From: an uncultured Bacilli bacterium
GTDB lineage: Bacteria > Bacillota_I > Bacilli_A > RF39 > UBA660
Length of the DNA: 64,000 nt
Direction: 5' to 3'
NCBI GenBank assembly: GCA_944372455.1
Contig: CALVZF010000001.1
Location: forward strand, 1,815-65,814
A program made the translations under genes and the position numbers. Under the pieces are notes generated by a model. That model ran no database searches, was not told the origin of the DNA, and saw only the letters and a program-made list of their open reading frames with translations. Of the stretch, positions 7,187 to 41,354 are shown piece by piece; the stretch's first letter is position 1, and each line of letters starts with the position of its first letter.

Positions 7187-7258
7187 TAAATGAAAGGGCA
7201 AATAATTTATTTGCTCTTTTAATTTGTTTTCATGATATAATTATTAAGGTGGTGAAAA

Positions 7259-24465: not shown

Positions 24466-24658
24466 CAAAAAAGAATAAAAAGGGGTTGGCTAGTGTGATA
24501 CTAGCACCAATTCGCCTAATTGGGAATTGGTAGTTCCTATACTAATTCATCTTTAAATATTTGTCAACATTTTTTAACATTTTTTTTAATTTTTTTCAAT
24601 ATAGTTTTTTTTAATAGTTATTTTAGTTATAATATTATATAAGAAAAAGGTGATCATC

Positions 24659-26653
24659 ATGGATTTATTAAACGTGTCTGGTATTGGTCCTAAATCAATA
24701 AATCTATTACATAAATTAAATATTTATACGATTTGCGATCTTTTAAATTATTATCCTTTTAGATATGAAATTTTGAAACTTGATAAACTATCTTTAAAAG
24801 CTGATGACGAAAAAGTAATTATAGAAGGATTAATAGAAAAAATTCCAACTGTTATAAGATTAAAAGGAAACATGAATAAAATGAGTTTAAGAGTTTTATC
24901 AGATGATATGTTAGTCAATGTTGTAATTTTTAATAGAGGGTTTATGAAACCTCATTTTCAAATTGGAAAAGAAATTACCATTATTGGTAAATGGAATAAG
25001 CTTAAGAATACTATCACTGCTTCTGATATTAGATTTGAAAAAATTAATGGTGTAAAAATAGAAAGTATTTATAGAACTACTCAAGGTTTAAATAAAAGAA
25101 TGTTATCAAAATATATAGATAATGCAATTAATGGGTGCATTAATGAACTTACTGATTATATACCTTTTTTTCTTTCAAACAAATATAATTTTATGGATAA
25201 AGAACAAGCAATTAAAATAATTCATAATCCGTTTGATATTGAAAGTTTAAAACAAGCACAAATAAGATTAAAATATGAAGAATTATTTGTTTTCATGTTA
25301 AAAATTAATTGTTTAAAACTTAAAAATCAAAAGCAAAACAATGGTTTACAAAGAGAAATAGATTATAATAAAGTAACAGAATTTATTGAACATCTTCCTT
25401 TTAAATTAACTACTGATCAATTAAGTGCAGTTTCAGAAATAAAAGATGATCTAATAAGTCCTAAAAGAATGAATAGATTACTACAAGGAGATGTTGGTAG
25501 TGGTAAAACTATTGTTAGTATTATTGCTTCTTATATAAATTATTTATCTGGTTATCAAACTGCTTTTATGGCACCTACTGAGATATTAGCTACTCAACAT
25601 TTTGAAAATATAAAAAAGTTATTTAATGATTATAATATAAACGTAGAACTATTAACTGGAAGTACAAAGAAGAAAGAAAAAAAACAGATTTATCAAAAAT
25701 TAGAAAATGGCGAAATAGATTTAATTATTGGTACTCATACTTTGATTCAAGACGATATTAAATATAAAAATTTAGGATTAGTTATAACAGATGAACAGCA
25801 CCGATTTGGAGTTAATCAAAGGTCAAATTTGAGCAATAAAGGAATGATGCCAGATATTTTATATATGAGTGCGACTCCAATACCTAGAACTTATGCTTTA
25901 ACTATATATGGAGATATGGATGTATCAAATATAAAGACAAGACCACAAGGTAGAAAAGATATAATAACTTATGTTAAAAATAATAATGAAATTATTGATG
26001 TGTTAAAATTGATGAAACAAGAACTTGATAGTAACCATCAAATTTATATAATAGCTCCACTAATTGAAGAGAGTGAAAGAAGCGATTTAGAAAACGTGTA
26101 TAAATTAGAAACTAATTTTAAAAAAGCTTTTAAAAATAATACTATTGAAATTTTGCATGGAAAAATGAGTTCAGAAGAAAAAGATGACGTAATGAATAAA
26201 TTTTCTAAAAATGAAACTAATATTTTAATTAGTACTACTGTTATAGAAGTTGGTGTAGATGTTAAAAATGCTACTATGATAGTAATTTTTGATGCTAATA
26301 GGTTTGGGCTTTCAACTTTACACCAATTAAGAGGAAGAGTAGGTAGAAATGATTTACAATCATATTGTGTATTAATTAGTGATAAATCAAAAGAACGATT
26401 AGAAATATTAAAAAATACTAACGATGGTTTTGAAATTAGTGAACAAGATTTTAAATTAAGAGGACAAGGAGATTTATTTGGAATAAAACAAAGTGGTGAT
26501 ATGACTTTTAAAATTGCCAATTTGAAAGAAGACTATAAAATATTGTTACAAGCTAAAAATGATTCATTGGAATTTCTTAAAAATGAGGTTTACACTCTTG
26601 ACAATAAGAAAATAATAGATGAAATCCTTGGAAATATTGACAATTTAAACTAA
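24659..26653 (+). CDS. recG: ATP-dependent DNA helicase RecG
   Basis: Wedge domain, Walker A GDVGSGKT, DEQH box (ITDEQHRFG), helicase C motifs (QLRGRVGR). ATG 24659 follows a GGTGA RBS. Confidence 0.9.
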   Translation: MDLLNVSGIGPKSINLLHKLNIYTICDLLNYYPFRYEILKLDKLSLKADDEKVIIEGLIEKIPTVIRLKGNMNKMSLRVLSDDMLVNVVIFNRGFMKPHFQIGKEITIIGKWNKLKNTITASDIRFEKINGVKIESIYRTTQGLNKRMLSKYIDNAINGCINELTDYIPFFLSNKYNFMDKEQAIKIIHNPFDIESLKQAQIRLKYEELFVFMLKINCLKLKNQKQNNGLQREIDYNKVTEFIEHLPFKLTTDQLSAVSEIKDDLISPKRMNRLLQGDVGSGKTIVSIIASYINYLSGYQTAFMAPTEILATQHFENIKKLFNDYNINVELLTGSTKKKEKKQIYQKLENGEIDLIIGTHTLIQDDIKYKNLGLVITDEQHRFGVNQRSNLSNKGMMPDILYMSATPIPRTYALTIYGDMDVSNIKTRPQGRKDIITYVKNNNEIIDVLKLMKQELDSNHQIYIIAPLIEESERSDLENVYKLETNFKKAFKNNTIEILHGKMSSEEKDDVMNKFSKNETNILISTTVIEVGVDVKNATMIVIFDANRFGLSTLHQLRGRVGRNDLQSYCVLISDKSKERLEILKNTNDGFEISEQDFKLRGQGDLFGIKQSGDMTFKIANLKEDYKILLQAKNDSLEFLKNEVYTLDNKKIIDEILGNIDNLN

Positions 26654-26785
26654 TGATTAAAAATTTTAAATTTTATTGGTATAAATATTATTGACATTTA
26701 TTTGAATTTTTAATATTATGTATTTAGCGTGATAGTATTACACGCTCACTCTTACGATTATATGTGAGAGTGTATTCAACCAAAA

Positions 26786-26823
26786 CCCCCTGAAGACGGA
26801 CTTATGTCCGTCGCTTTTTGTTT
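26786..26823 (+). repeat. CCCCCTGAAGAC + hairpin + T-run element (terminator-like), copy B
   Basis: CCCCCTGAAGACGGAC-TTAT-GTCCGTC-GCTTTTTGTTT. Same motif as 32990-33028 with compensatory stem changes. Confidence 0.5.
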
Positions 26824-26841
26824 ATGTACAATTAAAAAATA

Positions 26842-26870
26842 TTGACTTTTAGATAATTAAATAATAGAAT
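26842..26870 (+). promoter_or_regulatory. putative sigmaA promoter of the six-gene operon
   Basis: TTGACT - 17 nt - TAGAAT. Confidence 0.4.
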
Positions 26871-26921
26871 ATTAGTGAATTTTTGGAAATTGTGTTTTCC
26901 TATGGAGAAGACCAACTAGAA

Positions 26922-26956
26922 GGACAAAGGAAACATTTTACTTTTTGTCCTTTTTT
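26922..26956 (+). promoter_or_regulatory. leader terminator/attenuator hairpin in the 5' UTR of the six-gene operon
   Basis: GGACAAAG-loop-CTTTTTGTCC followed by TTTTTT, between the promoter and the RBS of the gene at 26988. Confidence 0.5.
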
Positions 26957-26987
26957 ATAAATTTACAATATTAATGAGAGGTGCAAT

Positions 26988-28115
26988 ATGGTCTGTAATA
27001 TTAAACAAAATACTTTAATAAAGAAGATTCATAAAGATATAGATAGAAAATTTGATAAAGTTATTTATATAAATATTCAGAATTTTTCAATTAATGGCTG
27101 TGCAATCTATCAAAAGAGAAAATGTTTTTTCAAAATAACAGATGAGGATTATTTTATTAAAGAAATAAATGGTTATCTTATTTCTTATAAAGAAATTCCA
27201 ACTATGACCATATTATTTGTAAAGTATTTATCTCATTGTAAAAAATATTTAATTGCTTATAATTTTAATAATAAAGTAAAGGAGAATAGTGGCTTATTAA
27301 ATGATATACTTGTAAAGAATGATAAAACTAATATAAGAGATAAAGCAACAGATAGAGAACTTAAAAATATTTTAGATGCTTATAGTACTATTTATAGTAG
27401 AAAAAAGGTATTTAGAAGTTATTGTCCTAGTAATATATTCTTTATTGAAAGGATAAATTCAAGATTAGACAAATGGTATATGAACTGTAGTGATTTTAAA
27501 AAGTTAATTGTCATAAATGGTAAGTACAACTTTAATTTACAAAACATTTTAAAAGAAACAAAAGAATATTTTTTAAATAATAAAAATAAAAAGTATCAAT
27601 GTATTTTAAGCCAAGGTGATCCAAATACTCTAAATATTTCCTCAACACCGTGTTTTTTTGATTTAGCAACTGCTGGTTATAATCCTATAATTGGTGAATT
27701 AGCTATTACAATTATATCTACTTTAATTTATGACAATTATTTTTGCCCAAAATATCATAGTAAATCGTACTATTTACACGAACTTGCTATTGAACAGTCA
27801 AGTTTATTTGAACCTAATTTACATTATAAATATAATAAATCTAATATTTATATAAATTCCGATATAATAACAAGTGATATAAGAAAAAAATATATTTTAA
27901 GTTATTTAGAAATTTTAAAGAAAAATAATATACATATAGGAAAAGAAATTAAGTATTATATTATAATGAGATTATTGTGTGTTTTTAATGTTAGAAAAAT
28001 GTCAAAAAAAGATTATTATTATTCTCTATATTTAGTATGTTATTTTTATAAAAATATAGACAATAATTTTTATAAATCTATTAGTGATATAATTAATGAA
28101 ATGGGGTGCGTTTAA
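26988..28115 (+). CDS. protein-kinase-like (APH/ChoK-fold) small-molecule phosphotransferase
   Basis: Catalytic loop LSQGDPNTLNI (cf. HGDxHPGNIL) and metal-binding FDLATAG (cf. DFE/DxG). Confidence 0.5.
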   Translation: MVCNIKQNTLIKKIHKDIDRKFDKVIYINIQNFSINGCAIYQKRKCFFKITDEDYFIKEINGYLISYKEIPTMTILFVKYLSHCKKYLIAYNFNNKVKENSGLLNDILVKNDKTNIRDKATDRELKNILDAYSTIYSRKKVFRSYCPSNIFFIERINSRLDKWYMNCSDFKKLIVINGKYNFNLQNILKETKEYFLNNKNKKYQCILSQGDPNTLNISSTPCFFDLATAGYNPIIGELAITIISTLIYDNYFCPKYHSKSYYLHELAIEQSSLFEPNLHYKYNKSNIYINSDIITSDIRKKYILSYLEILKKNNIHIGKEIKYYIIMRLLCVFNVRKMSKKDYYYSLYLVCYFYKNIDNNFYKSISDIINEMGCV

Positions 28116-28802
28116 ATGAATAATAATTATACAGATATAATTGATGATTATATAGAAAATTTGAAAGGGGCACTAGATAATAATCTTGAATTAATTTATA
28201 TAATTGGTAGTAGTGCTACAAAAGATGTAGTTGTTGGTTGGAGTGATATAGACTGTATTATTGTTATTAGTAATTATAATTTTAATGATATAGAAACCAT
28301 TAAAAAAATTTCTAATAGTTATGATATTAAGATAGGTAATACAATTTATTCTAAAAATGAATTTGAAAAGGGATTGTTAGATCAAAAAACTATATATTAT
28401 CTTTTATTAAATCAAGAAAAAATCTTAAATATAGCTTATATAAATTCAAATTTAAAAATACCAAATATAGATTATAATAATTGTAAAAATGCGACTAAAA
28501 CACTTCTTTTTAATGATTTACATAATTGCAAGAGATTATTAACATATATGAATTTAGATAGCGGACAAGTTAAATCTTTATTTAAAAAAATATATGTAAT
28601 TATGAAATCAATTCTAATATTACATAATTATAGACCGAAAAATTATAAAGAAACTTTTAATATGTTTAGCACTAACTTTAACTATGAATATTTTGATTAC
28701 CTTAAATTTATAGAAGATTTTAAAATGAATCAAGTAGACGAAAAAAAACTTAAAAATTATGCTTTTAAATTAATAGTATATGTTACTGATAAGATTTTAT
28801 AA
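28116..28802 (+). CDS. Pol-beta-superfamily nucleotidyltransferase (ANT/Lnu/AadA-like: NTase + helical C-domain)
   Basis: GSSATKD-x6-SDIDCIIVI minimal NTase motif (GS...D.D); start codon abuts the upstream stop. Confidence 0.55.
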   Translation: MNNNYTDIIDDYIENLKGALDNNLELIYIIGSSATKDVVVGWSDIDCIIVISNYNFNDIETIKKISNSYDIKIGNTIYSKNEFEKGLLDQKTIYYLLLNQEKILNIAYINSNLKIPNIDYNNCKNATKTLLFNDLHNCKRLLTYMNLDSGQVKSLFKKIYVIMKSILILHNYRPKNYKETFNMFSTNFNYEYFDYLKFIEDFKMNQVDEKKLKNYAFKLIVYVTDKIL

Positions 28803-28830
28803 TTCATATTCCAGGGAGGTGGAAGTAGCA

Positions 28831-29976
28831 ATGAATATGCCAAGACAATTTGATGATTTTGTTACATTTTTTGATATTGGAATAGAAAATATTAATCAAG
28901 AACAGTTTAGAACTTTGTACTGTGTTATGTCCGAAACCGTGAAGAAAAGAAATAATATTACTAGATTAGCATTACAATATTTATTAGATAAAGAGAAACT
29001 TACACAAGAAGAAAAAAATATTGCAACAACTATACTTGATGATAGTTATTATCAGAAACCTAATAGATATGAACATTGTAAACTATGTTCTGATGATTTT
29101 AATAGAGAAATACTGGCAAAATATAGTAATAGATTTAGGTTTTGGGAATTGTGCTTTCCAACTGTCCCATATTTTCCTGCTAATATGATGGTATATTTAA
29201 AAAATAGACAATTTATTCATAAAGAAAATTTTCAAGATTTAACAATAGAAGAACTAGAAGAATTAAAATATATTATAAGTAATTTAAAGGAAACTTTAAA
29301 TAATAATGTATTTAATGGTGAACTTACAGGTATAAATGTTTTGTTTAATCAAATATCTAAATCACAATTATGTATTCATGGGCACATAGAGTTGATGATA
29401 AGAAATATTGATAAATTAAATTATGGATGTACTTTGCTTAAAACTAGAAATTATGACCCTGTTGTTGAGAAAATAAATAATAAAATGAAAAGAAAAACAG
29501 GAGTTATACCAACATTAGAAGGTATTAGAATAAATATGAGCAATGTTAGTGATAAAATAGCATTAGATTATATAAATGAATATGAAAATAATTTATTAGA
29601 TATTATAAGATTAGGTAATGAATTAAGAAAGGGACAGCAAAAGGTAAATGGTGATTTTGATATGCTGTTGTTGAACGGCTTGAGTCCAGCACCTACAGAT
29701 TCAATATATTTAACTGATTACAGAGGAGAGTTGTTTTTATCAGCTGTTCCTGAAATTATACCACCAACTATTAATATTTCTGAAGTTGGGGATTTAAATG
29801 ATGCAGAAAATATGTATTTAATTAAATATAATGCTACAACACCTAATAGTAAATATGCAATTATGAAAAAGTATAGTCCATTAGTTAGACCGAGTAGTAA
29901 AGTTCCTTATGAAATGTCATATACCGAAAATGTAAAAGTGTTGACAAGAAAGATAGGTGATGTATTAAATATATGA
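28831..29976 (+). CDS. hypothetical enzyme, possible HIT/GalT-like nucleotidyl transferase or phosphorylase
   Basis: H-G-H-I-E motif (CIHGHIELM) reminiscent of HxHxQ/HxHxH; otherwise no clear domain. ATG 28831 follows a GGGAGGTGGA RBS. Confidence 0.3.
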   Translation: MNMPRQFDDFVTFFDIGIENINQEQFRTLYCVMSETVKKRNNITRLALQYLLDKEKLTQEEKNIATTILDDSYYQKPNRYEHCKLCSDDFNREILAKYSNRFRFWELCFPTVPYFPANMMVYLKNRQFIHKENFQDLTIEELEELKYIISNLKETLNNNVFNGELTGINVLFNQISKSQLCIHGHIELMIRNIDKLNYGCTLLKTRNYDPVVEKINNKMKRKTGVIPTLEGIRINMSNVSDKIALDYINEYENNLLDIIRLGNELRKGQQKVNGDFDMLLLNGLSPAPTDSIYLTDYRGELFLSAVPEIIPPTINISEVGDLNDAENMYLIKYNATTPNSKYAIMKKYSPLVRPSSKVPYEMSYTENVKVLTRKIGDVLNI

Positions 29977-31496
29977 AAACTAATGAGTTAATTTATGATA
30001 AAACTTTAAAGAAAATGCTTTTTGAATATATAGAAAAATTAGACAGTTTTATTATTAATACAAGTGGATATCCAACTTCAAATTGTCAAACTAAAGGAGA
30101 AGTAAACGATGTTTTCTTCAAAAAGTTAAATACAACAAAAATAAAGAAACTTTATAGTGGTGACTATCTATCTTTGTTTAATGAGTATTATAATTTATTA
30201 CAAGGAAAAGTAAAAACAAATAAAATTATAGCGTTGCTGTATAAAGATAATGATATTTTCGAATTTTCGCAGTTAATTGATAAAGAAAAGTTTTTAGATA
30301 ATGCTAATGTTTTTCAATGGGATGATATAAGTAATCTCTTTGATATAATTCTATTAGAAATTAATGCTTGTGTTAATTATAATAAAAGTAGTAAAATAAA
30401 GTTGGGAATTGAAACAGCGATTTGGAATTTTACAATAGATGGTATTCTTTTTGATTTAGATCCACCTAAACTATTAAAGAAAACAGAAGATACAAGTTTT
30501 ACTAGAAAAGAAGATATTAATCATATTAAAAGAACAATTTATCGTAGTTTTGATGAAACAGGTATGAAAATTAACTTGCTTGTTACTTTGAAATTAGGAG
30601 AAAAACATAATAGTTTTATTATAAAAAATAAACCTGATAATTATCTAATAATTCTTTTAAAAAAAATACTTGATAGTTATACTAAAGAAGATGATAGAAA
30701 AAAATTAGTAGAAAAATTATACAATGGTGTGTCTGCAAATGAGATGTTTGTAGATCACCCTATAGAAATTTTAAGGAGGGAACTTATGATGAGAGAACAA
30801 AGTATGAATAAAGAAATAGTATTTGTTGCTGGTACTTCTGAGTCTGGCAAAAGTGGAGGAATAAACTATTTAAAAGATAAATATGATGAAATTCAACATA
30901 TAAAAATAAGAGATGTTTTTCCTAAAGTTTATGAAGATACTCAAACAAATTTATCTTTTGAAGAATGGCAAGATGTTGAAGAAAAAAGAGATTTAAATAA
31001 CTTTTGGAGATTATTTGTAAATAAGGTTTATGAAATGGCTAATCCTGAAAAAAGTATTATAATTTTAGATACAATGTACGGTGTTGATGGTATGATAGAG
31101 TTATATAAAATATTAGGTGATAAAGTTAATTTACTATATATTGATGCTCCATTCAATGATAGAGTTATGAGAGAGTATTTAAGATTAAGAACAGATTCTC
31201 CAAGAGGTACAAGAAAAGCAGATTTATCAGTAACAATAGAAGATGTAGTAGAAAGAACAATAAAAAAAGATAAGAAAAAAAATAGCAGACGTGCTAATAA
31301 ATTAAAAGAGTTACGTTATAGTGCTGACTATAAAAGTTTAGAAATAGGTGGATTAGGAGAGCAATTTACTTATTTAATTAATAATGATAGTAATATTGAT
31401 AACTTTTATTCGTCTTTAGATAAATATATTAATCATATAAAAAATAAAAGTACTGATAAATCAGATGTAGAGTTACAAAAGAGGCTAAAAAAATGA
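29973..31496 (+). CDS. two-domain protein with C-terminal P-loop kinase-like NTPase
   Basis: Walker A VAGTSESGKSG and a hydrophobic-strand-Asp Walker B candidate (IIILDTMYG); N-terminal 270 aa of unknown fold. Overlaps the upstream stop (ATGA). Confidence 0.4.
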   Translation: MKTNELIYDKTLKKMLFEYIEKLDSFIINTSGYPTSNCQTKGEVNDVFFKKLNTTKIKKLYSGDYLSLFNEYYNLLQGKVKTNKIIALLYKDNDIFEFSQLIDKEKFLDNANVFQWDDISNLFDIILLEINACVNYNKSSKIKLGIETAIWNFTIDGILFDLDPPKLLKKTEDTSFTRKEDINHIKRTIYRSFDETGMKINLLVTLKLGEKHNSFIIKNKPDNYLIILLKKILDSYTKEDDRKKLVEKLYNGVSANEMFVDHPIEILRRELMMREQSMNKEIVFVAGTSESGKSGGINYLKDKYDEIQHIKIRDVFPKVYEDTQTNLSFEEWQDVEEKRDLNNFWRLFVNKVYEMANPEKSIIILDTMYGVDGMIELYKILGDKVNLLYIDAPFNDRVMREYLRLRTDSPRGTRKADLSVTIEDVVERTIKKDKKKNSRRANKLKELRYSADYKSLEIGGLGEQFTYLINNDSNIDNFYSSLDKYINHIKNKSTDKSDVELQKRLKK

Positions 31497-32014
31497 ATTT
31501 AACATTTTTAAGACATGGTACAACTGATTTAAATGGAAAAGGATTAATTGCTACAAAGTTAGACTATTCTTTAAATGATAATGGAAGAAAACAATGTGTG
31601 GAAAATATTTTTGCAAAAGATGATTTTAGCATCGTTTATTCTTCGCCTTATAAAAGGACTTTAGAAACTGCTAGACTTGTGTATCCATATAGTGAACCTA
31701 TTATATTACCTTGTATTGTGCAACGCAATTTAGGTGTTTTAAATGAAAAATATAAAAAAGATTATACTAGAGAATATTTAAAGTTGGTTAGAGATTATAT
31801 AGTTAATCCCGAAGGTGCAGAAACATTAAATGATATAATAATTAGATTAGATTACTTTTTTGATTACGTTAAACTAAATAATAGTGAAAATGCTAATATT
31901 TTAGTAGTTACTCATAATGGTATTATGAGAATAATAAAGAAGTATTATATGAATGAAACAAATAATATAGAAAGTGAAAATTTGGAAAAATTTACTTTGA
32001 CTTTAAAGAGGTAA
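31493..32014 (+). CDS. histidine phosphatase (phosphoglycerate-mutase/CobC family)
   Basis: RHG motif (LRHGTTDLN), SSPYKRTLETA, second His (VVTHNGIMR). Confidence 0.7.
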   Translation: MNLTFLRHGTTDLNGKGLIATKLDYSLNDNGRKQCVENIFAKDDFSIVYSSPYKRTLETARLVYPYSEPIILPCIVQRNLGVLNEKYKKDYTREYLKLVRDYIVNPEGAETLNDIIIRLDYFFDYVKLNNSENANILVVTHNGIMRIIKKYYMNETNNIESENLEKFTLTLKR

Positions 32015-32168
32015 GATACTAACAAAATATAATATGAATTTTTGGAATATATTATTAATACTAATTATTTAGCAGTTGTAATATAATTTGTTCATTATAC
32101 AACAGGAAGTACATTTACAATATAGATAGTGTAAGAAAGTTATTCTAAATAATAGAGGTGGTTATTAT

Positions 32169-32657
32169 ATGCGAGAAAGTATAAAAATTAAAACAGATAA
32201 TTATAATTTTAAGTTTAGAGTTTCAGGATTAATTATAAAAAATAATAAGCTTTTATTAGTTGATATGGATGATAGTGGTTTTTGGTGTTTACCTGGAGGT
32301 TATGTAGAACTAGGTGAAACAACAGAGACTGCAGTTAAACGCGAATTGTTAGAAGAAGTAGGAAAAAAGTTTGATATTAGTAAATATTTGGGTGTAGTAG
32401 AAAATTACTTTATAAATAAATATTCAAAAAAAATTCATGAAATATCTTTCTACTATTTAATGAGTCCTATAGAAAATATAGATACTAATAATTTTACTAT
32501 TATTGAAAATGATAAAGGTCATAATATAAAGTTGGCTTTCAAGTGGATTGATTTAAAAGAAGTAAATAATTATGATATCAGACCTAGTTTTCTTAAACAA
32601 ATCTTAGAAAGTGAAAATCTTGAATTTAATCATCTGATTTTTAATGAGTTAGATTAA
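32169..32657 (+). CDS. Nudix hydrolase
   Basis: Nudix box GGYVELGETTETAVKRELLEEVG. Confidence 0.8.
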   Translation: MRESIKIKTDNYNFKFRVSGLIIKNNKLLLVDMDDSGFWCLPGGYVELGETTETAVKRELLEEVGKKFDISKYLGVVENYFINKYSKKIHEISFYYLMSPIENIDTNNFTIIENDKGHNIKLAFKWIDLKEVNNYDIRPSFLKQILESENLEFNHLIFNELD

Positions 32658-32989
32658 GCGCATTATTATTTATAATAAAAAATGATAATTATTTAAACCT
32701 TAAAAAGATTTTAATATTTATAGATAGAAATCTTTAGATTACCAATTCAAGTGATATAGTTATTATGAAAGGTATAAGGTTTTTATGGAAAAATAGTAAT
32801 TGAACTATATATAAAATAATTTCGGGATTCTATACATGTATAAAATATTAAATTAGGTAATAATTAGGTAATATTTTTTTAGATTTTTCTTAATTATATT
32901 TAATTTTCTTTAATATAAATTAAATTAAAACAGTTAAAAAAATAATGGGAAAATGAAGTTGTAAAATAAAAAATGACTAAACAACTTCG

Positions 32990-33028
32990 CCCCCTGAAGA
33001 CAGACCGAGAGGTCTGTCATTTGTTTTT
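32990..33028 (+). repeat. CCCCCTGAAGAC + hairpin + T-run element, copy C
   Basis: CCCCCTGAAGACAGACC-GAGA-GGTCTGTC-ATTTGTTTTT, preceded by hairpin GAAGTTGT...ACAACTTC. Confidence 0.5.
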
Positions 33029-33191
33029 ATACCCATAAAATGGGGGATTTAAGATAAATTTAAATATTTCCAAACTACATTAAACCACATTTTATTAATT
33101 TTCAGTGGTTAGATAAATGAATAAAGAGTTTAACTAAGAGATTTTTAATAAATTTCTTAGTTTTTTTAATAAATATAGAAAGGAGTCAAAA

Positions 33192-33335
33192 ATGTCAGAA
33201 TGTAAAATAATCGCAATAACAAATCAGAAAGGAGGGGTAGGTAAAACTACAACTACCTTTAATCAAGGATGCATCAAGAATTATAGAATAATTACTTATC
33301 TTTTATACCAACTAGTACATCTAATGAAACATTAA
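33192..33335 (+). pseudogene. truncated ParA/Soj-family partition ATPase (N-terminal 30 aa, then out-of-context tail)
   Basis: MSECKIIAITNQKGGVGKTTTTFNQG deviant Walker A, then the frame runs into the antisense strand of the XRE gene and stops after 47 codons. Confidence 0.6.
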
Positions 33336-33732
33336 AAATTTTACATAAACTAATTAGTGTTTCAACAGAAATTGATCTTTTTTGAGTTTCATATTGTGAT
33401 ATTGTATTATGATTATAGGATAGTTTATTCGCTAAGTCTTTTTGTGTCGTATTTTTTGATAACCGGTAATTTTTAAGAATTTTAGTTAATTGGGATAATT
33501 TAAATTTTTTTCTATTACCATTAAAGTATTTAATGTTTGTTATTCCTACAATATAATCTAAACTAACATTATAAAATTCAGCAATTTCAAGTAGTAAAGA
33601 AATTGGTATAGCATTTTTTTGTGTTTCATATTCTACATAGGATCTACGATTTATATTTAATCTATTTGAAATATCTTCTTGTGAATAATTATAATATTCT
33701 CGTAAATCTTTGATTCTAAATTTTTTAATCAT
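33292..33732 (-). CDS. tandem XRE-family HTH transcriptional regulator
   Basis: Two Cro/C1-type HTH repeats (QEDISNRLNINRRSYVEYE and QKDLANKLSYNHNTISQYE). Confidence 0.7.
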   Translation of the reverse strand: MIKKFRIKDLREYYNYSQEDISNRLNINRRSYVEYETQKNAIPISLLLEIAEFYNVSLDYIVGITNIKYFNGNRKKFKLSQLTKILKNYRLSKNTTQKDLANKLSYNHNTISQYETQKRSISVETLISLCKIFNVSLDVLVGIKDK

Positions 33733-34041
33733 TTATACACCGCCTATTTTATACATTCATAACGTATCATAGATGAATTATTTTTATTTTCGTTTGGCAT
33801 AAATTGCGAAGTTGTTAAGAATCATTAAAATATTGTCTAAACTAAAATTTATTTAGTAAATATTTAGAAAGGAGCAGGTCTAAAATATCTTATATTAGTA
33901 ATTTTAGGTTAAAAAAAGTATGTTCAAGATAAATTATTATGTAATTTTATTAACAATCTATCACGTTTTTATACTTACCAAAAAGTGCGTACTACCACAA
34001 ATGAAAGTGTTGTTGTATAATATATATAGGAGTTGATACCT

Positions 34042-34353
34042 ATGACAAAAACTTATACAAATTGTCCAGTTGAATATACAGCATCTATTATAGGAAACAA
34101 ATGGAAAATTATTATTCTAAGAGATTTACTAACGGGCACAAAAAGATATAATGAGTTAACAAGAAGTGTTGTTGGGATATCAGCTAAAGTATTGACAGAA
34201 AATTTAAGAGAATTAGAAGGTGACGGAATTGTTAAAAGAAAAGTTTATCCTGTAGTACCACCTAAAGTAGAATATTCCTTAACAGATAAAGGAAACGAAT
34301 TAAAAGACGTACTTGATATGATGAAAGCGTTTGGAGAAAAATATAAACAATGA
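34042..34353 (+). CDS. HxlR-family winged-helix transcriptional regulator
   Basis: CPVEYTASIIGNKWKIIILRDL...RYNEL signature of HxlR/MarR-like regulators. Confidence 0.8.
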   Translation: MTKTYTNCPVEYTASIIGNKWKIIILRDLLTGTKRYNELTRSVVGISAKVLTENLRELEGDGIVKRKVYPVVPPKVEYSLTDKGNELKDVLDMMKAFGEKYKQ

Positions 34354-35237
34354 TTTTAAATGTTAGTGGAAGGACAGATATAATTGCTTTTTACAGCGAA
34401 TGGTTTATGAATAGATATAAAGAGGGATTTGTAGATGTAAGAAATCCATTTAATCCTAAAATGATTAGTAGAATATATTTTGACGATGTAGATGCTATCA
34501 TGTTTTGTACAAAAAATCCGATACCTATACTAAAATATTTAAGGGAAATCAAAAAGCCAATATTATTTCATGTTACTTTAACTTCATATCATAAAGATAT
34601 TGAACCAAATGTTCCATCAAAAGGAAAGATAATAGAAGCCGTGAAAGAATTATCTAATATTGTTGGAGTAGATAATTTAAGTATTAGATATGATCCTTTA
34701 TATATAAGTGATAAGTACAACGTAGAATATCATAAAAAAGCATTTGACAAATTGTGCAGTTTATTAGAAGGATATGCAAAAAGAATAATAATATCGTTTA
34801 TAGATGATTATAAAAATGTTAGAAAAAATGAAAAGAAATTAAACTTTCGTGAATTTACTGAAAATGATTATAAAGAAATAGGTATTAGTTTTAGTGAAAG
34901 TGCAAAAAAATATGGAATGACAGTTCAAACTTGTTTTGAGGATAGAAATCTTGCAGAATATGGCTTTACTATAGGAGAATGTGTATCACATGAATTAGCA
35001 TATATTTTAACTGGTAAAAAATATCCTAATTGGAAAGCGAGAAAAGAACAAAAATGTAATTGTGTTCAAATGGTTGATATAGGAGTATATAATACTTGTA
35101 ATCACATGTGCAAGTATTGCTATGCTAATTATGATGAAAAACAAGTATTAAGTAATATGTGTGAGCATGATAAAAATAGCAGTTTACTGATTGGTCATAT
35201 TAATGAAGATGATATTATCAAAGTTAGAGAGGGATGA
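34350..35237 (+). CDS. DUF1848-like protein with C-terminal CxxxCxxC cysteine cluster
   Basis: C-terminal NTCNHMCKYCYANY (radical-SAM-like C-x3-C-x2-C) plus extra Cys (CNCVQ, CEHD). DUF1848 assignment is from recall. Confidence 0.45.
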   Translation: MILNVSGRTDIIAFYSEWFMNRYKEGFVDVRNPFNPKMISRIYFDDVDAIMFCTKNPIPILKYLREIKKPILFHVTLTSYHKDIEPNVPSKGKIIEAVKELSNIVGVDNLSIRYDPLYISDKYNVEYHKKAFDKLCSLLEGYAKRIIISFIDDYKNVRKNEKKLNFREFTENDYKEIGISFSESAKKYGMTVQTCFEDRNLAEYGFTIGECVSHELAYILTGKKYPNWKARKEQKCNCVQMVDIGVYNTCNHMCKYCYANYDEKQVLSNMCEHDKNSSLLIGHINEDDIIKVREG

Positions 35238-36000
35238 TTCTATAAATAATATTGATTATTTAATTCAAGAACTAATTAAAGAAGATACAAGACTAGCTAA
35301 CATAAAAATACCATCATCATTAGAAGAAAAGAAAGAATTATATCGTGCAATTAGAAATATAAGAGAACCAAAGCCAATAAGTGAAGAATACCTAAAAATT
35401 CAAGATGAATATTTACAGGAAGAAATAAAAAAGAAAGGTATTGTGAATGAAGAAGAAATCCCATTTGATAAAAGTATTATTTCTATATGGAGAGGAGATA
35501 TAACAACGCTAAAATGTGATGTAGTAGTAAATGCTTGTAATAAATATTTACTTGGTTGTTTTAATCCTGCTCATAGATGTATAGATAATACAATTCATTC
35601 ATTTTCAGGAATAGAACTTCGTGAAGAATGTAATAATATTATGAAAGGTAGGACATTACCTAATGGTAAAGTTGTTTTAACTAATGCATATAATTTACCT
35701 AGTAAATATATTATTCAAACAGTTGGACCAGAGGTAAATGGGATTCCAACTGAACAAGATAAAGAAGATTTAAAAAATTGTTATTATAATTCATTAGAGC
35801 TTGCCAAAGAAAAAGGATTAAAAAGTATTGCATTTCCATGTATAGCAACAGGACTTTATGGATTTCCACAAGATGAGGCAATTGAAATAGCAATTAAAAC
35901 TATTACAAATTACATAGAAGAAAATATAGGTATATTCAAACATATTATATTTAATGTATTTAAAGATGAAGATTTAATAATCTATAAAAAAAATCTATGA
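35203..36000 (+). CDS. macrodomain protein (MacroD/YmdB-like ADP-ribose hydrolase) with about 95 aa N-terminal extension
   Basis: Macro motifs GDIT-CDVVVNACN, IHSFSG, IIQTVGPEVNG, SIAFPCIATGLYGFP. Start overlaps the DUF1848 gene. Confidence 0.8.
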   Translation: MKMILSKLERDDSINNIDYLIQELIKEDTRLANIKIPSSLEEKKELYRAIRNIREPKPISEEYLKIQDEYLQEEIKKKGIVNEEEIPFDKSIISIWRGDITTLKCDVVVNACNKYLLGCFNPAHRCIDNTIHSFSGIELREECNNIMKGRTLPNGKVVLTNAYNLPSKYIIQTVGPEVNGIPTEQDKEDLKNCYYNSLELAKEKGLKSIAFPCIATGLYGFPQDEAIEIAIKTITNYIEENIGIFKHIIFNVFKDEDLIIYKKNL

Positions 36001-36018
36001 TAAAGGTGATGAAATATA

Positions 36019-36846
36019 ATGACTGATATTATTAAAATTAAAAAATGGATTGATGAAGCAAATGCAATTATAATTGGTGCAGGTGCAGGATTATCAGATG
36101 CAGCAGGTATTCATTATAGTGGAGCAAAATTTGAACACGATTTTATAGATTGGATTAGAAAGTACGGAATAAAAGATTTATATACTTCATCTTTTTATCC
36201 ATTTAGAACAGAAGAAGAAAGATGGGCTTATTGGTCTAAACACATTTATTTTTCTTATTATGAAAGAAGAAATACTGACCTTTATAAAAATTTATTTAAT
36301 CTAATTAAAGATAAGAATTATTTTGTTATCACAACTAATACTGATGGACAGTTTATAAATAATGGATTTGATAAAGAAAGAGTATTTGAAGTTCAAGGTA
36401 GTTATTCAAAACTACAGTGTGCTACACCATGTCATAACAAACTATATGATAATGAAGAACAAGTAAAAGAAATGTTATCAAATATAGATGAAGATTTAAA
36501 AATACCTTCTTCATTAGTTCCTAAATGTCCTGTGTGTGGTAAAAAGATGTCAGTTAATTTAAGATGCGATAATACATTTGTTGAAGATGATAATTGGTTT
36601 AAAATGCAAAATAAGTATAATAATTTTATAAGAAATAATTCTGATAAAAATGTACTTTTATTAGAGTTTGGTATTGGTTTTAACACGCCTGGAATTATTA
36701 GATTTCCATTTGAACAAATGACATTTATGTACGATAATTTCAAGTTAATAAGATTTAATGATAAATATGCAATGATACCAGAAGAAATTAGAGATAGGGC
36801 TATACCTGTAACTGATAATATAAATGGAACAATAGACTTAATATAA
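36019..36846 (+). CDS. Sir2-family protein, macrodomain-linked sirtuin (SirTM-like)
   Basis: Rossmann GAGAGLSDAAGI, Zn ribbon CATPCHNKLYD...CPVCGKKM; immediately downstream of the macrodomain gene. Confidence 0.75.
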   Translation: MTDIIKIKKWIDEANAIIIGAGAGLSDAAGIHYSGAKFEHDFIDWIRKYGIKDLYTSSFYPFRTEEERWAYWSKHIYFSYYERRNTDLYKNLFNLIKDKNYFVITTNTDGQFINNGFDKERVFEVQGSYSKLQCATPCHNKLYDNEEQVKEMLSNIDEDLKIPSSLVPKCPVCGKKMSVNLRCDNTFVEDDNWFKMQNKYNNFIRNNSDKNVLLLEFGIGFNTPGIIRFPFEQMTFMYDNFKLIRFNDKYAMIPEEIRDRAIPVTDNINGTIDLI

Positions 36847-37033
36847 AAATTAAATTATATATAATATAGAAAAGAATCTAGAAAATATTTTAGATTTTTT
36901 TTAATAAATTTACATGCTAAAAACTTTCTTTTTTTCTTATTTCAAAATATAATTAATTATGGTATTATTAACTAAACTAAAAGTAGAGTTATAAATTTAA
37001 TTTATGTGATATGATTATTTTGAGGTGAAAATC

Positions 37034-38854: not shown

Positions 38855-38865
38855 ATGGAGGAATT

Positions 38866-39669
38866 ATGAAAAAGAAAATAATTATTTCGGTTTTAGTAAT
38901 TCTTTTAATTATTTTAATACTATATTTTTTAATACTGAGAAATATATACTTAGGATATAAAAAAATAAGTATAATCTATGATAAAGAAAATAATAGTCAA
39001 ACGGTAGAATTAGGGATTCCTAAATTATCATTCATGGCTAAAGAAAATGATAAAAGTTATTCGTTTAAAAATTTAAGAAGTAATAAAGTTTTGCTTAATG
39101 AAGTTAAAGATTTTTTAAAAACTTTAGAAAGCTTAAACTGTAATAATACAACCTATTATTATGATTCAAAAAATGACTTTACCATTGTAGACTATTCCGT
39201 AAAAAATAATTTTGTTTATAATACTATCTCTTATAGAATTGTTTATGGTAATTATTGCAATCAAAACAAACTAGCTGAATACGCAAAAAAACTTGGTGGA
39301 CTTAAAAGATATCATACTATAAATGGTGGAAAAATAACTTTAAATGAAAGCTGGAATTCTAAATTTGAAATGTTGTTTTTAGATGACATTACTGAATCAA
39401 ATAAAGGTTATAAATTTAAAGCTAATTTAAAAGTAATGTATTATAAAAGAAAATCCGAAAAAGAATTTTACACATATACTTTAGAAAATTCAGTTGGAAA
39501 CTTTCAAATAAAAGATGATAAGTTATATTATACTAGAACAGAAATATTAGAAAGTTCTAATGATATAACAATTCCTAATGAATCTATTTTTAAAATAAAA
39601 GATAGTAAATTAATTTTAACTGACAATTATTTAAGTAATTATTATGATCAAGAAATAATTTTAAATTAA
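38866..39669 (+). CDS. membrane-anchored hypothetical protein
   Basis: N-terminal TM; 267 aa extracytoplasmic portion with no recognisable domain. Confidence 0.3.
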   Translation: MKKKIIISVLVILLIILILYFLILRNIYLGYKKISIIYDKENNSQTVELGIPKLSFMAKENDKSYSFKNLRSNKVLLNEVKDFLKTLESLNCNNTTYYYDSKNDFTIVDYSVKNNFVYNTISYRIVYGNYCNQNKLAEYAKKLGGLKRYHTINGGKITLNESWNSKFEMLFLDDITESNKGYKFKANLKVMYYKRKSEKEFYTYTLENSVGNFQIKDDKLYYTRTEILESSNDITIPNESIFKIKDSKLILTDNYLSNYYDQEIILN

Positions 39670-39849
39670 AAAAGGCGATTTTTTATTGTCTTTTTTAATT
39701 TACTATAAATTATACAAGTCAATATCTAAATAATATTTCTTTAAATTTTAAATAAGCAATAATGAATTTATTTAATTATTTAAAAAATGTATACAAAAAG
39801 CCAAAATAATAGTATATTAACATTAGGTATTTAAAAAGGAGTGATATTT

Positions 39850-41321: not shown

Positions 41322-41354
41322 AAAGATGGTAAAATAAGTATATAGGTGATCATT

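What the first reader, a model, noticed from the sequence alone, without database searches (positions are those of the whole stretch)
26786..33028. Six-gene nucleotide-modifying operon (kinase, NTase, HIT-like, P-loop, His-phosphatase, Nudix) under a leader attenuator
Between recG and a plasmid-like remnant sits a tightly packed cassette with overlapping or abutting start/stop codons. Where Bacilli normally have fapR-plsX, this window has an APH-like protein-kinase-fold phosphotransferase and an ANT/AadA-like Pol-beta nucleotidyltransferase. They are followed by a possible HIT/GalT-like enzyme, a two-domain protein with a C-terminal Walker-A kinase domain, a PGAM-type histidine phosphatase and a Nudix pyrophosphatase. 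The cassette has its own sigmaA-like promoter (26842-26870) and an intrinsic-terminator hairpin in the leader (26922-26956), suggesting attenuation control. Two copies of the CCCCCTGAAGAC-hairpin element bracket it, at 26786 and 32990. The enzyme set matches no pathway I can name. It looks like stepwise phosphorylation, nucleotidylation and pyrophosphate trimming of a small molecule or nucleotide. Possibilities include a novel nucleotide-derived signal or defence module, or an antibiotic tailoring or inactivation cassette. Its neighbours are defence-associated genes (macro-Sir2, R-M).
Basis: partly seen in the sequence, partly recalled or inferred. Interest (0 to 1): 0.8.

Follow-up and report, generated by a model that had tools for sequence, protein, structure and literature searches.

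The report
Mobile six-enzyme nucleotide-handling operon
A compact operon of three kinase domains, two nucleotide-transferring enzymes, a phosphatase and a Nudix hydrolase is real, is conserved in about twenty species of uncultured gut bacteria, and rides on a decayed mobile island inserted into a small-RNA gene; what molecule it makes or modifies is still unknown.

Summary
P1 is an APH-like kinase (weakest call). P2 is a Pol-beta nucleotidyltransferase. P3 is a HIT protein with GalT/Apa2/Cwf19-like features. P4 is a protein-kinase-like domain fused to an NMP-kinase-like P-loop domain. P5 is a histidine phosphatase and P6 a Nudix hydrolase.

P1, P3 and P4 match no Pfam, NCBIfam or PADLOC family. 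P1-P2-P3-P4 are colinear in 14 of 20 species-level loci, all gut MAGs. An SDR gene present in close relatives has been deleted here.

The two CCCCCTGAAGAC hairpins are attL and attR. The left copy is the terminator end of a conserved, unannotated ~95-nt sRNA next to recG. That site is an integration hot spot: about a third of 58 metagenome loci have a tyrosine integrase beside it. The cassette is 95% identical to a relative whose recG is only 72% identical.

The "leader attenuator" is a weak hairpin conserved only in near relatives, so it is unproven.

No known pathway, resistance family or defence system fits. My best reading (about 0.4) is a multistep phosphorylation and nucleotidylation pathway acting on a nucleoside- or sugar-like small molecule. 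Interesting, but function unresolved.

The parts
26691..26719 (+). Promoter-like site (TTGACA-17-TATTAT, 11/12) of the small-RNA gene downstream of recG
   Evidence: Best-scoring site in the region. An equivalent -10 region sits upstream of the element in the metagenome loci.
26726..26820 (+). Conserved ~95-nt sRNA-like gene (ends approximate). It has two hairpins, a single-stranded UAUUCAACCAAAACCCCCUGAA stretch and a terminator. Its 3' end is the integration target.
   Evidence: Fold z = -5.96. The core is found in 58 metagenome loci. Hairpin 1 covaries (GC 13 / AU 10). Terminator stems differ between loci yet each looked self-complementary on reading. No Rfam hit.
26786..26815 (+). attL: CCCCCTGAAGAC core plus terminator hairpin GACGGAC-TTAT-GTCCGTC
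   Evidence: D18. Similarity to L009, which lies in a different genomic context, begins at 26791 inside this core.
26842..26870 (+). Cassette promoter-like site TTGACT-17-TAGAAT
   Evidence: 10/12, not above chance on its own. The -35 and -10 elements are conserved in L001 and L009.
26919..26956 (+). Leader hairpin (10-12 bp, A/U-rich, only 3 G-C pairs) followed by U6. A possible leaky terminator; function unproven.
   Evidence: structure present, z = -0.72 for the leader. Kept through G-U pairs in L001 and L009, absent in relatives at about 60% identity.
26988..28115 (+). P1, 375 aa: predicted APH/choline-kinase-like (protein-kinase-fold) small-molecule kinase from a family absent from Pfam
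   Evidence: No Pfam or PDB hit for the sequence or for profile A2. The wider profile A4 hits only APH(3')-IIIa (E = 0.015) across the catalytic loop. N216, D225 and G230 are invariant and K49, E59 and D211 near-invariant in 74 sequences. The family has 338 representatives.
28116..28802 (+). P2, 228 aa: Pol-beta-type nucleotidyltransferase (GS...WSDID motif) with a helical C-terminal half
   Evidence: NTP_transf_2 is hit by 15 of 15 family members, best E = 7e-8; the window protein scores 19.2 bits against a cut-off of 21. PDB profile hits are an MNT-like NTase and ANT(4')-IIb, E = 0.02-0.04.
28831..29976 (+). P3, 381 aa: HIT-superfamily protein with partial two-lobe similarity to GalT/Apa2/Cwf19. 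Motif C181-I-H183-G-H185-x-E187 plus H82-C83-x-x-C86.
29973..30782 (+). P4 N-terminal domain (about aa 1-270): protein-kinase-like fold. Motif (E/D)-T-A/S-I-W-N ... L-F-D-L-D-P-P, plus K50.
30804..31496 (+). P4 C-terminal domain: NMP-kinase-like P-loop kinase (Walker A GTSESGKSGG)
31493..32014 (+). P5, 173 aa: histidine phosphatase (branch 1), RHG motif present
   Evidence: His_Phos_1 at 81.7 bits, E = 7e-23. Nearest NCBIfam models are alpha-ribazole phosphatase and PspA, far below their cut-offs.
32024..32146 (+). Remnants of a deleted short-chain dehydrogenase (SDR) gene
   Evidence: Window 32024-32089 matches L001 13461-13528. The window from 32079 on matches L001 from 13841 on, which is the 3' end of the 239-aa adh_short gene at L001 13189-13908.
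32169..32657 (+). P6, 162 aa: Nudix hydrolase with an intact Nudix box
   Evidence: NUDIX at 56.8 bits, E = 3e-15. Nearest NCBIfam models are NTP pyrophosphohydrolases (NudG, YtkD, MutT), below cut-off.
32843..32880 (+). AGGTAATAATTAGGTAAT repeat just inside the right end; possibly an integrase arm-type site (inference)
   Evidence: The same motif lies just inside both ends of the island in L001, at about 7186-7210 and 14466-14490.
32990..33028 (+). attR: second CCCCCTGAAGAC core plus a different terminator hairpin GACAGACC-GAGA-GGTCTGTC
   Evidence: High similarity to L001 ends at 32999, inside the core.

Best explanation
The block is the cargo operon of a decayed integrative island that has lost its integrase. 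The island inserted into the terminator end of a conserved sRNA gene beside recG.

The operon most likely encodes a multistep cytoplasmic pathway. It loads phosphate and a nucleotide onto a small hydroxylated molecule, probably nucleoside- or sugar-like, and then trims them off again.

Proposed order of steps (all inferred):
1. P1, an APH-like kinase, phosphorylates the substrate X.
2. P2 (Pol-beta nucleotidyltransferase) and/or P3 (GalT/Apa2-like HIT enzyme, presumably through a covalent His185-NMP intermediate) couple or exchange an NMP, giving an NDP-linked or dinucleotide-type intermediate.
3. The two kinase domains of P4 add further phosphates. The NMP-kinase-like domain either converts NMP to NDP or phosphorylates the nucleotide ribose, as dephospho-CoA kinase does.
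4. An SDR, lost in this strain, oxidises or reduces the intermediate. Relatives carry a carbamoyltransferase, a methyltransferase-like protein or a BtrH-like acyltransferase with a carrier protein instead.
5. The Nudix hydrolase (P6) and the histidine phosphatase (P5) remove the nucleotide and phosphate handles, either to release the product or to proofread.

Shown here: the folds, the catalytic motifs, the gene co-conservation and the mobility of the block. Inferred: the substrate class, the order of steps, and whether the pathway is anabolic.
For: Folds and motifs.

Co-conservation:
- P1-P2-P3-P4 are colinear in 14 of 20 genuine species-level loci. Three more loci are cut off by contig ends or have P1 replaced.
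- The histidine phosphatase, Nudix and SDR genes recur.
- P4 is split into two genes in several lineages, so its two kinase domains are separate activities.
- Contexts agree.

Hints of a nucleotide-level substrate:
- The P1 family occurs fused to Nudix and to UMPH-1/HAD 5'-nucleotidase domains.
- NT5C sits beside the Zeta-kinase-P3 fusions.
- A dTMP-kinase-like gene is a neighbour in L088.
- P4's C-terminal domain is nearest to NMP and dephospho-CoA kinases.
- P6 is nearest to NTP pyrophosphohydrolases.

Hints of a biosynthetic or tailoring context in relatives:
- A NodU/TobZ-type carbamoyltransferase, a HAD phosphatase and a methyltransferase-like protein in L023 and L021.
- BtrH_N plus a carrier protein in L088.
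- A B12-binding radical SAM enzyme next to the P3-Zeta fusion.
- DAHP synthase plus Pkinase-P3-His-phosphatase in L028.

Precedents for transient phosphate or nucleotide handles:
- Cryptic phosphorylation and dephosphorylation in sinefungin biosynthesis (bioRxiv 10.64898/2026.05.21.726688).
- Cytidylyl activation in phosphonate biosynthesis. The argolaphos cluster described in that paper also lists a NUDIX gene (PMC8976061).

Mobility.
Against: - The conserved core holds only phospho- and nucleotidyl-transferases and hydrolases. It has no scaffold-forming enzyme, exporter, regulator or obvious immunity gene.
- The substrate is unknown and no biochemical data exist.
- P1's kinase fold rests on motifs and one E = 0.015 profile hit.
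- P3 has HxHxE rather than HxHxQ/H, and its global TM-scores to GalT-type structures are low (0.2-0.3).
- This strain lacks the SDR, and L009 has a frameshifted P1, so the trait is dispensable or decaying in places.
- Other islands at the same att site carry resistance and restriction-modification cargo, which favours the rival explanations.
Confidence: 0.4

Rival explanations
1. It is an antibiotic or xenobiotic inactivation cassette. P1 (APH-like) and P2 (ANT-like) phosphorylate and nucleotidylate an exogenous drug, such as an aminoglycoside, lincosamide, macrolide or nucleoside antibiotic. The leader hairpin provides inducible expression.
For: - P1's only PDB profile hits are APH(3')-IIIa.
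- P2 resembles ANT(4')-IIb in the GS..WSDID region.
- The block is island cargo, and another island at the same att site (L048) carries an ABC-F-like protein plus a bona fide APH.
- A hairpin with a U-run and a tiny uORF precede P1.
Against: - No AMR model comes near its threshold. ANT_4p_II scores 11.9 bits against a cut-off of 350, and P1 has no hit at all.
- Resistance needs one enzyme, not five co-conserved catalytic domains.
- HIT, Nudix and phosphatase activities would tend to undo the modifications.
- The uORF sequence is not conserved between near relatives and lacks a Shine-Dalgarno sequence.
- Relatives sit next to tailoring and biosynthetic enzymes.
- No relatives are found in plasmid collections.
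Confidence: 0.2
2. It is an anti-phage or competition module. It makes a toxic or signalling nucleotide analogue, or re-routes nucleotide pools, during infection.
For: - The block is mobile-island cargo at a hot spot that elsewhere carries a type III-like restriction-modification system.
- P2 weakly hits the PADLOC candidate PDC-M05A (E = 8e-7) and a CBASS cyclase model. P6 hits PDC-S07 (E = 5.5e-11).
- Distribution is sporadic: about 20 of 185,579 species.
- The enzyme set is nucleotide-centred.
Against: - P1, P3, P4 and P5 have no PADLOC hit.
- There is no sensor or effector module such as a nuclease, TIR, SIR2 or membrane protein inside the island.
- No relatives occur in phage or IMG/VR collections, where counter-defence homologues might be expected.
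- The neighbours are not a clear defence island.
Confidence: 0.15
3. It is a salvage route. It converts a scavenged precursor (an amino sugar, cofactor moiety or unusual nucleoside) into a nucleotide-activated building block for a small-genome gut bacterium. The logic would be like NahK-GalT-GalE, AmgK-MurU or the last steps of CoA synthesis.
For: - Kinase, then nucleotidyl transfer, then P-loop kinase is the standard salvage and activation order (established knowledge).
- A GalT-like enzyme next to an anomeric-kinase-like enzyme and an SDR parallels the LNB/GNB pathway.
- P5 is nearest to alpha-ribazole phosphatase models.
- The hosts are low-GC gut MAGs.
Against: - The block is rare, horizontally moved (95% identity against 72% for recG) and decaying in some lineages. 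That is unlike a core salvage function.
- No transporter or glycosyltransferase is linked to it.
- None of the equivalog models is approached.
Confidence: 0.15

Closest known systems
Leloir-type and LNB/GNB sugar activation (GalK or NahK kinase, then GalT-type HIT uridylyltransferase, then GalE SDR)
   Same: An APH-fold or other kinase sits next to a GalT-branch HIT enzyme and an SDR. The chemistry is phosphorylate first, then exchange a nucleotide through a His-NMP intermediate. (The pathway comes from established knowledge; the folds are.)
   Different: This block adds a Pol-beta NTase, a second protein-kinase-like domain, an NMP-kinase-like domain, a Nudix hydrolase and a histidine phosphatase. 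P3 has HxHxE rather than HxHxQ and matches no GalT HMM. The SDR is a classical 239-aa type, not an extended GalE type.
Kinase, then nucleotidyltransferase, then P-loop kinase logic (last steps of CoA synthesis; Campylobacter O-methyl-phosphoramidate pathway Cj1418-Cj1415)
   Different: There is no sequence-level membership in any of those families. The resemblance in pathway logic is recalled from knowledge and was not tested here.
Transient ("cryptic") phosphate or nucleotide handles in natural-product biosynthesis (sinefungin SinF/SinD; phosphonate cytidylylation by Fom1, FrbH, PhpF; a NUDIX gene listed in the argolaphos cluster)
   Same: Forward enzymes (kinase, NTase) and reverse enzymes (phosphatase, Nudix) sit in one cluster beside variable tailoring enzymes (bioRxiv 10.64898/2026.05.21.726688; PMC8976061).
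   Different: Those clusters contain scaffold-building enzymes and come from actinomycetes. This core has none and comes from ~24% GC gut Bacilli and Clostridia. No product is known.
Aminoglycoside-modifying enzymes APH(3') and ANT(4')
   Same: The nearest solved structures by profile search for P1 and P2 share the same catalytic motifs.
   Different: E-values are only 0.015-0.04. The AMR HMM thresholds are missed by a wide margin. The two genes are embedded in a conserved 5-7 gene pathway.
Integrative (mobilisable) elements that target the 3' end of tRNA, tmRNA or sRNA genes
   Same: Direct repeats duplicate the 3' end of a small RNA gene. A tyrosine integrase sits next to attL in other loci. 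Mob_Pre relaxase and AAA_25 genes occur in sister islands.
   Different: The island in this window has lost its integrase entirely. The target is an uncatalogued sRNA with no Rfam family.

Membership tests
APH/choline-kinase-like phosphotransferases (Pfam PF01636), for P1 | Match to the family HMM at or above the gathering score | tested here: not met
   The window protein has no hit at E <= 1. Only 1 of 74 family members hits APH, at E = 0.002.
APH/choline-kinase-like phosphotransferases (Pfam PF01636), for P1 | Catalytic residues: beta-3 Lys, alpha-C Glu, (H)xDxxxxN loop and DFG-type Asp | tested here: met
   N216 and D225 are invariant and K49, E59 and D211 at least 90% conserved in 74 sequences. 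The loop reads SQGDPNTLNI...FFDLATAG, with Q in place of H. It aligns to SHGDLGDSNI...FIDLGRSG of APH(3')-IIIa.
APH/choline-kinase-like phosphotransferases (Pfam PF01636), for P1 | Bilobal protein-kinase-like fold | not tested
Indirect evidence only: a genuine Pkinase-domain protein occupies the P1 position in L028.
Pol-beta nucleotidyltransferases (PF01909 NTP_transf_2), for P2 | G-S ... D-x-D motif and an HMM match | tested here: met
   G31, S32, S43, D44 and D46 are invariant. All 15 of 15 members hit PF01909, best E = 7e-8; the window protein alone scores 19.2 bits, just under the cut-off of 21.
ANT(4')/AadA aminoglycoside nucleotidyltransferase resistance families, for P2 | Score above the NCBIfam AMR model cut-off | tested here: not met
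   ANT_4p_II scores 11.9 bits against a cut-off of 350.
GalT/Apa2 branch of the HIT superfamily, for P3 | HIT alpha+beta fold duplicated in one chain | tested here: inconclusive
GalT/Apa2 branch of the HIT superfamily, for P3 | H-x-H-x-Q/H nucleotide-binding motif with a nucleophilic central His | tested here: inconclusive
   The motif is H183-G-H185-x-E187. H183 and E187 are invariant and H185 is at least 90% conserved, but the last position is E rather than Q or H.
GalT/Apa2 branch of the HIT superfamily, for P3 | Cys/His metal site (C-x-x-C plus His) | tested here: met
   H82, C83, C86, C181 and H183 are invariant. Metal binding itself was not tested.
NMP-kinase-like P-loop kinases, for the P4 C-terminal domain | Walker A motif and the core/lid fold | tested here: met
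Protein-kinase-like fold, for the P4 N-terminal domain | Bilobal fold with a catalytic D/E-x4-N loop and a metal-binding Asp | tested here: met
Histidine phosphatase superfamily branch 1 (PF00300), for P5 | HMM above cut-off and an RHG catalytic motif | tested here: met
   81.7 bits against a cut-off of 21.7. LRHGTT is at residues 6-11. No equivalog threshold is reached.
Nudix hydrolases (PF00293), for P6 | HMM above cut-off and the Nudix box Gx5Ex7REUxEExGU | tested here: met
   56.8 bits against a cut-off of 21.1. The box reads GYVELGETTETAVKRELLEEVG.
Known anti-phage defence systems (PADLOC-DB v2) | The component proteins of one system all match | tested here: not met
   Only P2 (PDC-M05A, 27.5 bits) and P6 (PDC-S07, 40.2 bits) have weak hits. 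P1, P3, P4 and P5 have none.
Riboswitch or attenuator RNA families (Rfam 15) | Covariance-model match in the leader | tested here: not met
   Nothing at gathering score. The best E-value hits are chance-level snoRNA or LhrC matches.
Integrative island at a small-RNA gene | Direct repeats that duplicate the 3' end of the target gene | tested here: met
   Second copies lie 1.7-11.8 kb downstream in L048, L058, L066 and L086.
Integrative island at a small-RNA gene | Integrase gene inside the island | tested here: not met
   tblastn finds no integrase in the window. The relative L001 keeps a frameshifted, truncated copy at 7348-8022, and L024 has intact integrases on both sides of the cassette.

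The most novel reading that the evidence does not exclude
The cassette synthesises a previously undescribed nucleotide-derived metabolite in gut Bacilli and Clostridia. This could be an NDP-linked or dinucleoside-polyphosphate-type antimetabolite or signal. It would be built by three novel enzyme families (P1, P3, P4) and spread on sRNA-targeting mobile islands as a competition or anti-phage trait.
Probability: 0.25. Interest if true: 0.8.

Novelty: new variant of a known kind. Interest (0 to 1): 0.55.

Why it matters
- Three of the six proteins belong to families with no Pfam, NCBIfam or PADLOC model. They keep invariant catalytic residues and fixed gene order across Bacilli and Clostridia MAGs, so a real but unknown chemistry is being selected.
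- If the product is a nucleotide-derived antimetabolite or signal, it would be a new class of small molecule from the poorly cultured low-GC gut flora, and a source of new kinase, HIT and NTase activities.
- Separately, the work exposes an uncatalogued conserved sRNA beside recG. It serves as an integration hot spot for mobilisable islands carrying resistance, restriction and this cassette. That is useful for island detection in gut metagenomes.

Tried and rejected
- Single-sequence and profile searches of P1, P3 and P4 against Pfam, NCBIfam, PADLOC and PDB gave nothing, or only weak superfamily hits.
- Rfam at gathering and at E-value thresholds found nothing for the leader or for the sRNA.
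- The ribosome-stalling uORF idea was rejected. The uORF reads MEKTN* here, MTN* in L001 and MKNII* in L009. It has no Shine-Dalgarno sequence, and its sequence and start position are not conserved.
- A functional link to nrdDG in the Clostridia loci was rejected as probable insertion-site adjacency. A 93-aa NrdG-like fragment follows the cassette there.
- hhalign of the P1 family against P4 gave only 21% probability, over the N-lobe FFK region, so it is not usable.
- P3 and P1 have no relatives in INPHARED phages, PLSDB plasmids or IMG/VR. The A4-based viral scan could not be run.
- The afdb50 fold library was unavailable.
- The SDR remnant is not significant by tblastn alone (E = 0.17). It rests on the blastn synteny.

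Full report
**1. What is in the sequence**

The window is about 24% G+C throughout. Six same-strand ORFs follow recG (24650-26653):

| Gene | Coordinates | Length |
|---|---|---|
| P1 | 26988-28115 | 375 aa |
| P2 | 28116-28802 | 228 aa |
| P3 | 28831-29976 | 381 aa |
| P4 | 29973-31496 | 507 aa |
| P5 | 31493-32014 | 173 aa |
| P6 | 32169-32657 | 162 aa |

- P1/P2 abut. P3/P4 and P4/P5 each overlap by 4 nt.
Homologues are 376-381 aa, and a GGGAGGTGG Shine-Dalgarno sequence precedes the ATG at 28831. P2 and P3 are therefore 28 nt apart.
- The only terminator-like sites in 26500-33400 are the two hairpins that follow the two exact copies of CCCCCTGAAGAC, at 26786 and 32990. Shuffled sequence gives none.

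**2. The six proteins**

*P5 and P6.* These are clear-cut: His_Phos_1 (E = 7e-23) and NUDIX (E = 3e-15). Both have intact RHG and Nudix-box motifs. Neither reaches any NCBIfam equivalog threshold.

*P2.* This is a Pol-beta nucleotidyltransferase.
- All 15 aligned family members hit NTP_transf_2, best E = 7e-8.
- The GS...WSDID motif is invariant.
- The nearest solved structures are an MNT-like NTase and ANT(4')-IIb.

*P3.* It has no Pfam, NCBIfam or PDB sequence hit.
- An AlphaFold2 model built from 25 homologues is confident (pLDDT 92.9).
- Invariant residues give H82-C83-x-x-C86 plus C181-I-H183-G-H185-x-E187. That is a GalT-like Cys/His metal site and an HxHxE version of the HxHxQ/H motif.
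- Global TM-scores are low (0.2-0.3). I therefore call it a HIT enzyme with GalT/Apa2-like features, not a GalT family member.

*P4.* The model (pLDDT 86.5) has two domains.
- In several lineages the two halves are separate genes.

*P1.* This is the weakest call.
- There is no Pfam or PDB hit, even with a 31-sequence profile.
- An exhaustive profile search found 338 cluster representatives.
- A 74-sequence profile hits only APH(3')-IIIa in the PDB (E = 0.015). The alignment runs over SQGDPNTLNI...FFDLATAG against SHGDLGDSNI...FIDLGRSG.
- N216 and D225 are invariant and K49, E59 and D211 at least 90% conserved; together these are the canonical kinase-fold catalytic set.
- In locus L028 a genuine Pkinase-domain protein (E = 6e-28) occupies the P1 position next to P3.

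**3. Co-conservation**

Each of P1, P3 and P4 has only about 70-115 clusters at 90% identity in a database of 5.8 billion proteins. None carries an informative name: the few source names are "hypothetical protein", from Erysipelotrichaceae or Clostridiales MAGs.

A scan of one genome per species (185,579 species) with the P3 profile found 21 loci, one of them marginal. All are gut MAGs titled uncultured Bacilli, Clostridia or Clostridium.

Classifying the ORFs of every locus showed:
- P1-P2-P3-P4 are colinear in 14 of the 20 genuine loci.
- Three more loci are cut by contig ends or have P1 replaced.
- Three loci have P3 in another context.
- The histidine phosphatase and Nudix genes accompany the core in most Bacilli loci.
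- An SDR accompanies it in many loci, upstream of P1 in the Clostridia ones.

In close relatives (L001-L003) a 239-aa SDR lies between P5 and P6. The window keeps only two short remnants of it, at 32024-32146. L009 has a frameshifted P1 and an SDR remnant.

**4. Variants that hint at function**

- The P1 family occurs fused to Nudix, to UMPH-1/HAD 5'-nucleotidase domains, and to BtrH_N-like domains.
- L023 and L021 add a NodU/TobZ-type carbamoyltransferase, a HAD phosphatase and a methyltransferase-like protein.
- L088 pairs BtrH_N-P1 and an extended P2 with a carrier protein, a dTMP-kinase-like protein, an NTP_transf_5 protein, a P4C-like kinase and a PPDK-like protein.
- L090 has SDR, HAD-P1, P2 and Nudix.
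- In L007 and L026, P3 is fused to a Zeta-toxin-type P-loop kinase. The fusion sits beside an NT5C-like (deoxy)nucleotidase (a weak Pfam hit, seen in L007) and a radical-SAM protein that is B12-binding by NCBIfam in L007; L007 also has an adenosine deaminase and an aldo-keto reductase.
- L028 has a U32 (TrhP/UbiU-like) protein, an MDH-like dehydrogenase, DAHP synthase, Pkinase, P3 and a histidine phosphatase.

The recurring partners fall into two groups. One group sets the phosphorylation state of nucleotides. The other is typical tailoring enzymes of specialised metabolism.

**5. The bracketing repeats are att sites in an sRNA gene**

*The sRNA.*
- The stretch 26722-26822 folds far better than shuffles (z = -5.96). 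It forms two hairpins, a single-stranded C-rich segment and the terminator.
- It is preceded by the best promoter match in the region, at 26691-26719.
- Its core, ATGTGAGAGTRTATTCAACC, occurs in 58 metagenome loci, with 44 distinct variants.
- Hairpin 1 covaries (GC 13 / AU 10).
- The terminator stems differ from locus to locus, yet those I read were self-complementary.
- recG lies upstream in most loci.
- No Rfam family matches.

*The hot spot.*
- In roughly 20 of the 58 loci a tyrosine integrase gene, or a fragment of one, lies on the minus strand about 120-190 bp downstream of the sRNA.
- In L048, L058, L066 and L086 a second CCCCCTGAA copy lies 1.7-11.8 kb further on.
- Two such islands carry Mob_Pre relaxase and AAA_25 genes. 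One has an ABC-F-like protein plus APH as cargo; the other has ResIII plus a DNA methylase.

*This island.*
- The window's cassette is 94.9% identical to L001 from 26838 to 32039, and similarity (about 85-89%, interrupted by the SDR deletion) continues to 32999, inside the second repeat. The adjacent recG genes are only about 72% identical.
- L001 has the same repeat pair. It also has a frameshifted, 5'-truncated integrase between attL and the cassette.
- The window has no integrase.
- L009 carries the cassette, at 91% nucleotide identity starting at 26791 inside the core, in an unrelated context.
- L024 has intact integrases on both sides.

The block is therefore horizontally moved island cargo.

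**6. The leader**

- The promoter-like site at 26842-26870 and the hairpin with U-run at 26919-26956 are present, and both are kept in L001 and L009. The hairpin is maintained partly through G-U pairs and its U-run is interrupted in those relatives.
- Relatives at about 60% protein identity have unrelated upstream regions.
- The leader's folding energy is ordinary (z = -0.72).
- The tiny uORF differs in sequence and start position between the three near relatives.
- Attenuation is possible but not shown.

**7. Interpretation**

The operon combines three kinase domains and two nucleotide-transferring enzymes with two enzymes that undo such modifications. In relatives it also carries variable tailoring enzymes.

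The best fit is a multistep pathway that phosphorylates and nucleotidylates a small nucleoside- or sugar-like molecule and later removes those handles. The same logic is seen in three places:
- kinase, then NTase, then P-loop-kinase routes such as CoA synthesis and the MeOPN pathway (from knowledge);
- GalT-type activation (from knowledge);
- the cryptic phosphorylation or cytidylylation steps of nucleoside and phosphonate natural products (bioRxiv 10.64898/2026.05.21.726688; PMC8976061).

I put this at about 0.4. The rivals are:
- drug inactivation, about 0.2, strengthened by the resistance cargo of a sister island;
- anti-phage or competition function, about 0.15;
- salvage of a scavenged precursor, about 0.15.

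The core has no scaffold-building enzyme, exporter, regulator or effector. This keeps all of these open.

**8. Verdict**

It is a conserved, mobile cassette built from three uncatalogued enzyme families, sitting in an sRNA-gene integration hot spot. All the folds are known kinds, the attenuator is unproven, and the function remains inferred.

- Novelty: new variant of a known kind.
- Interest: 0.55.

Noticed in passing
window 26691-26820: An uncatalogued, conserved ~95-nt sRNA-like gene sits immediately downstream of recG. It has its own promoter, two hairpins, a single-stranded C-rich stretch (ACCCCCUGAA) and a terminator. It occurs in 58 metagenome loci with covariation, and has no Rfam family.
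   Followed up: yes
L048 237-11800; L058 270-10476 (metagenome loci sharing the sRNA): Other islands at the same att site are integrative mobilisable elements carrying an integrase, a Mob_Pre relaxase and an AAA_25 protein. One has an ABC-F-like protein plus an APH phosphotransferase as cargo. The other has a ResIII helicase plus an N6/N4 DNA methylase.
   Followed up: partly
window 32024-32146: Remnants of a short-chain dehydrogenase gene that is intact between the histidine phosphatase and Nudix genes in close relatives (L001 13189-13908). The pathway in this strain may be incomplete.
   Followed up: yes
L009 6967-13218: The same cassette (91% nucleotide identity) sits in an unrelated genomic context. 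P1 is split by a frameshift (96 + 259 aa) and only an SDR remnant is left. This shows both mobility and decay.
   Followed up: partly
L001 7348-8022 (minus strand): A frameshifted, 5'-truncated tyrosine integrase pseudogene lies between the sRNA terminator and the cassette promoter. The window has lost this segment completely.
   Followed up: yes
L007 6436-11911; L026 3885-7644: P3 is fused to an N-terminal Zeta-toxin-type P-loop kinase (635-636 aa). Next to it are a B12-binding radical SAM enzyme and an NT5C-like nucleotidase. In L007 the cluster lies on a conjugative-element-like contig (PcfJ, ArdC, SSB, primase) together with an adenosine deaminase and an aldo-keto reductase.
   Followed up: partly
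L028 4033-10778: A variant cluster: a U32 (TrhP/UbiU-like) protein, an MDH/LDH-like dehydrogenase, DAHP synthase, a genuine Pkinase-domain protein, P3 and a histidine phosphatase. Integrase fragments lie downstream.
   Followed up: partly
window 33192-33299: A ParA/Soj-type N-terminal fragment (MSECKIIAITNQKGGVGKTTT...) that breaks off after about 36 codons, just beyond attR.
   Followed up: partly
window 34033-42563: The downstream neighbours are HxlR, DUF1848, a Macro-domain protein, a weak SIR2-family protein, a 609-aa HTH protein, a LiaF-like protein, DUF4097 and an N6/N4 DNA methylase. I did not test whether the Macro and SIR2 genes form a functional pair. This is not an obvious defence island.
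   Followed up: partly
L004 12837-13118 (and L005, L006): In the Clostridia loci the cassette sits between nrdD-nrdG and a 93-aa NrdG-like (Fer4_12) fragment. This suggests insertion into, or next to, nrdG rather than a functional link with ribonucleotide reductase.
   Followed up: no
window 32843-32880; L001 7186-7210 and 14466-14490: An AGGTAATAATTAGGTAAT motif lies just inside the island ends: both ends in L001, the right end in the window. It may be an integrase arm-type binding site.
   Followed up: no
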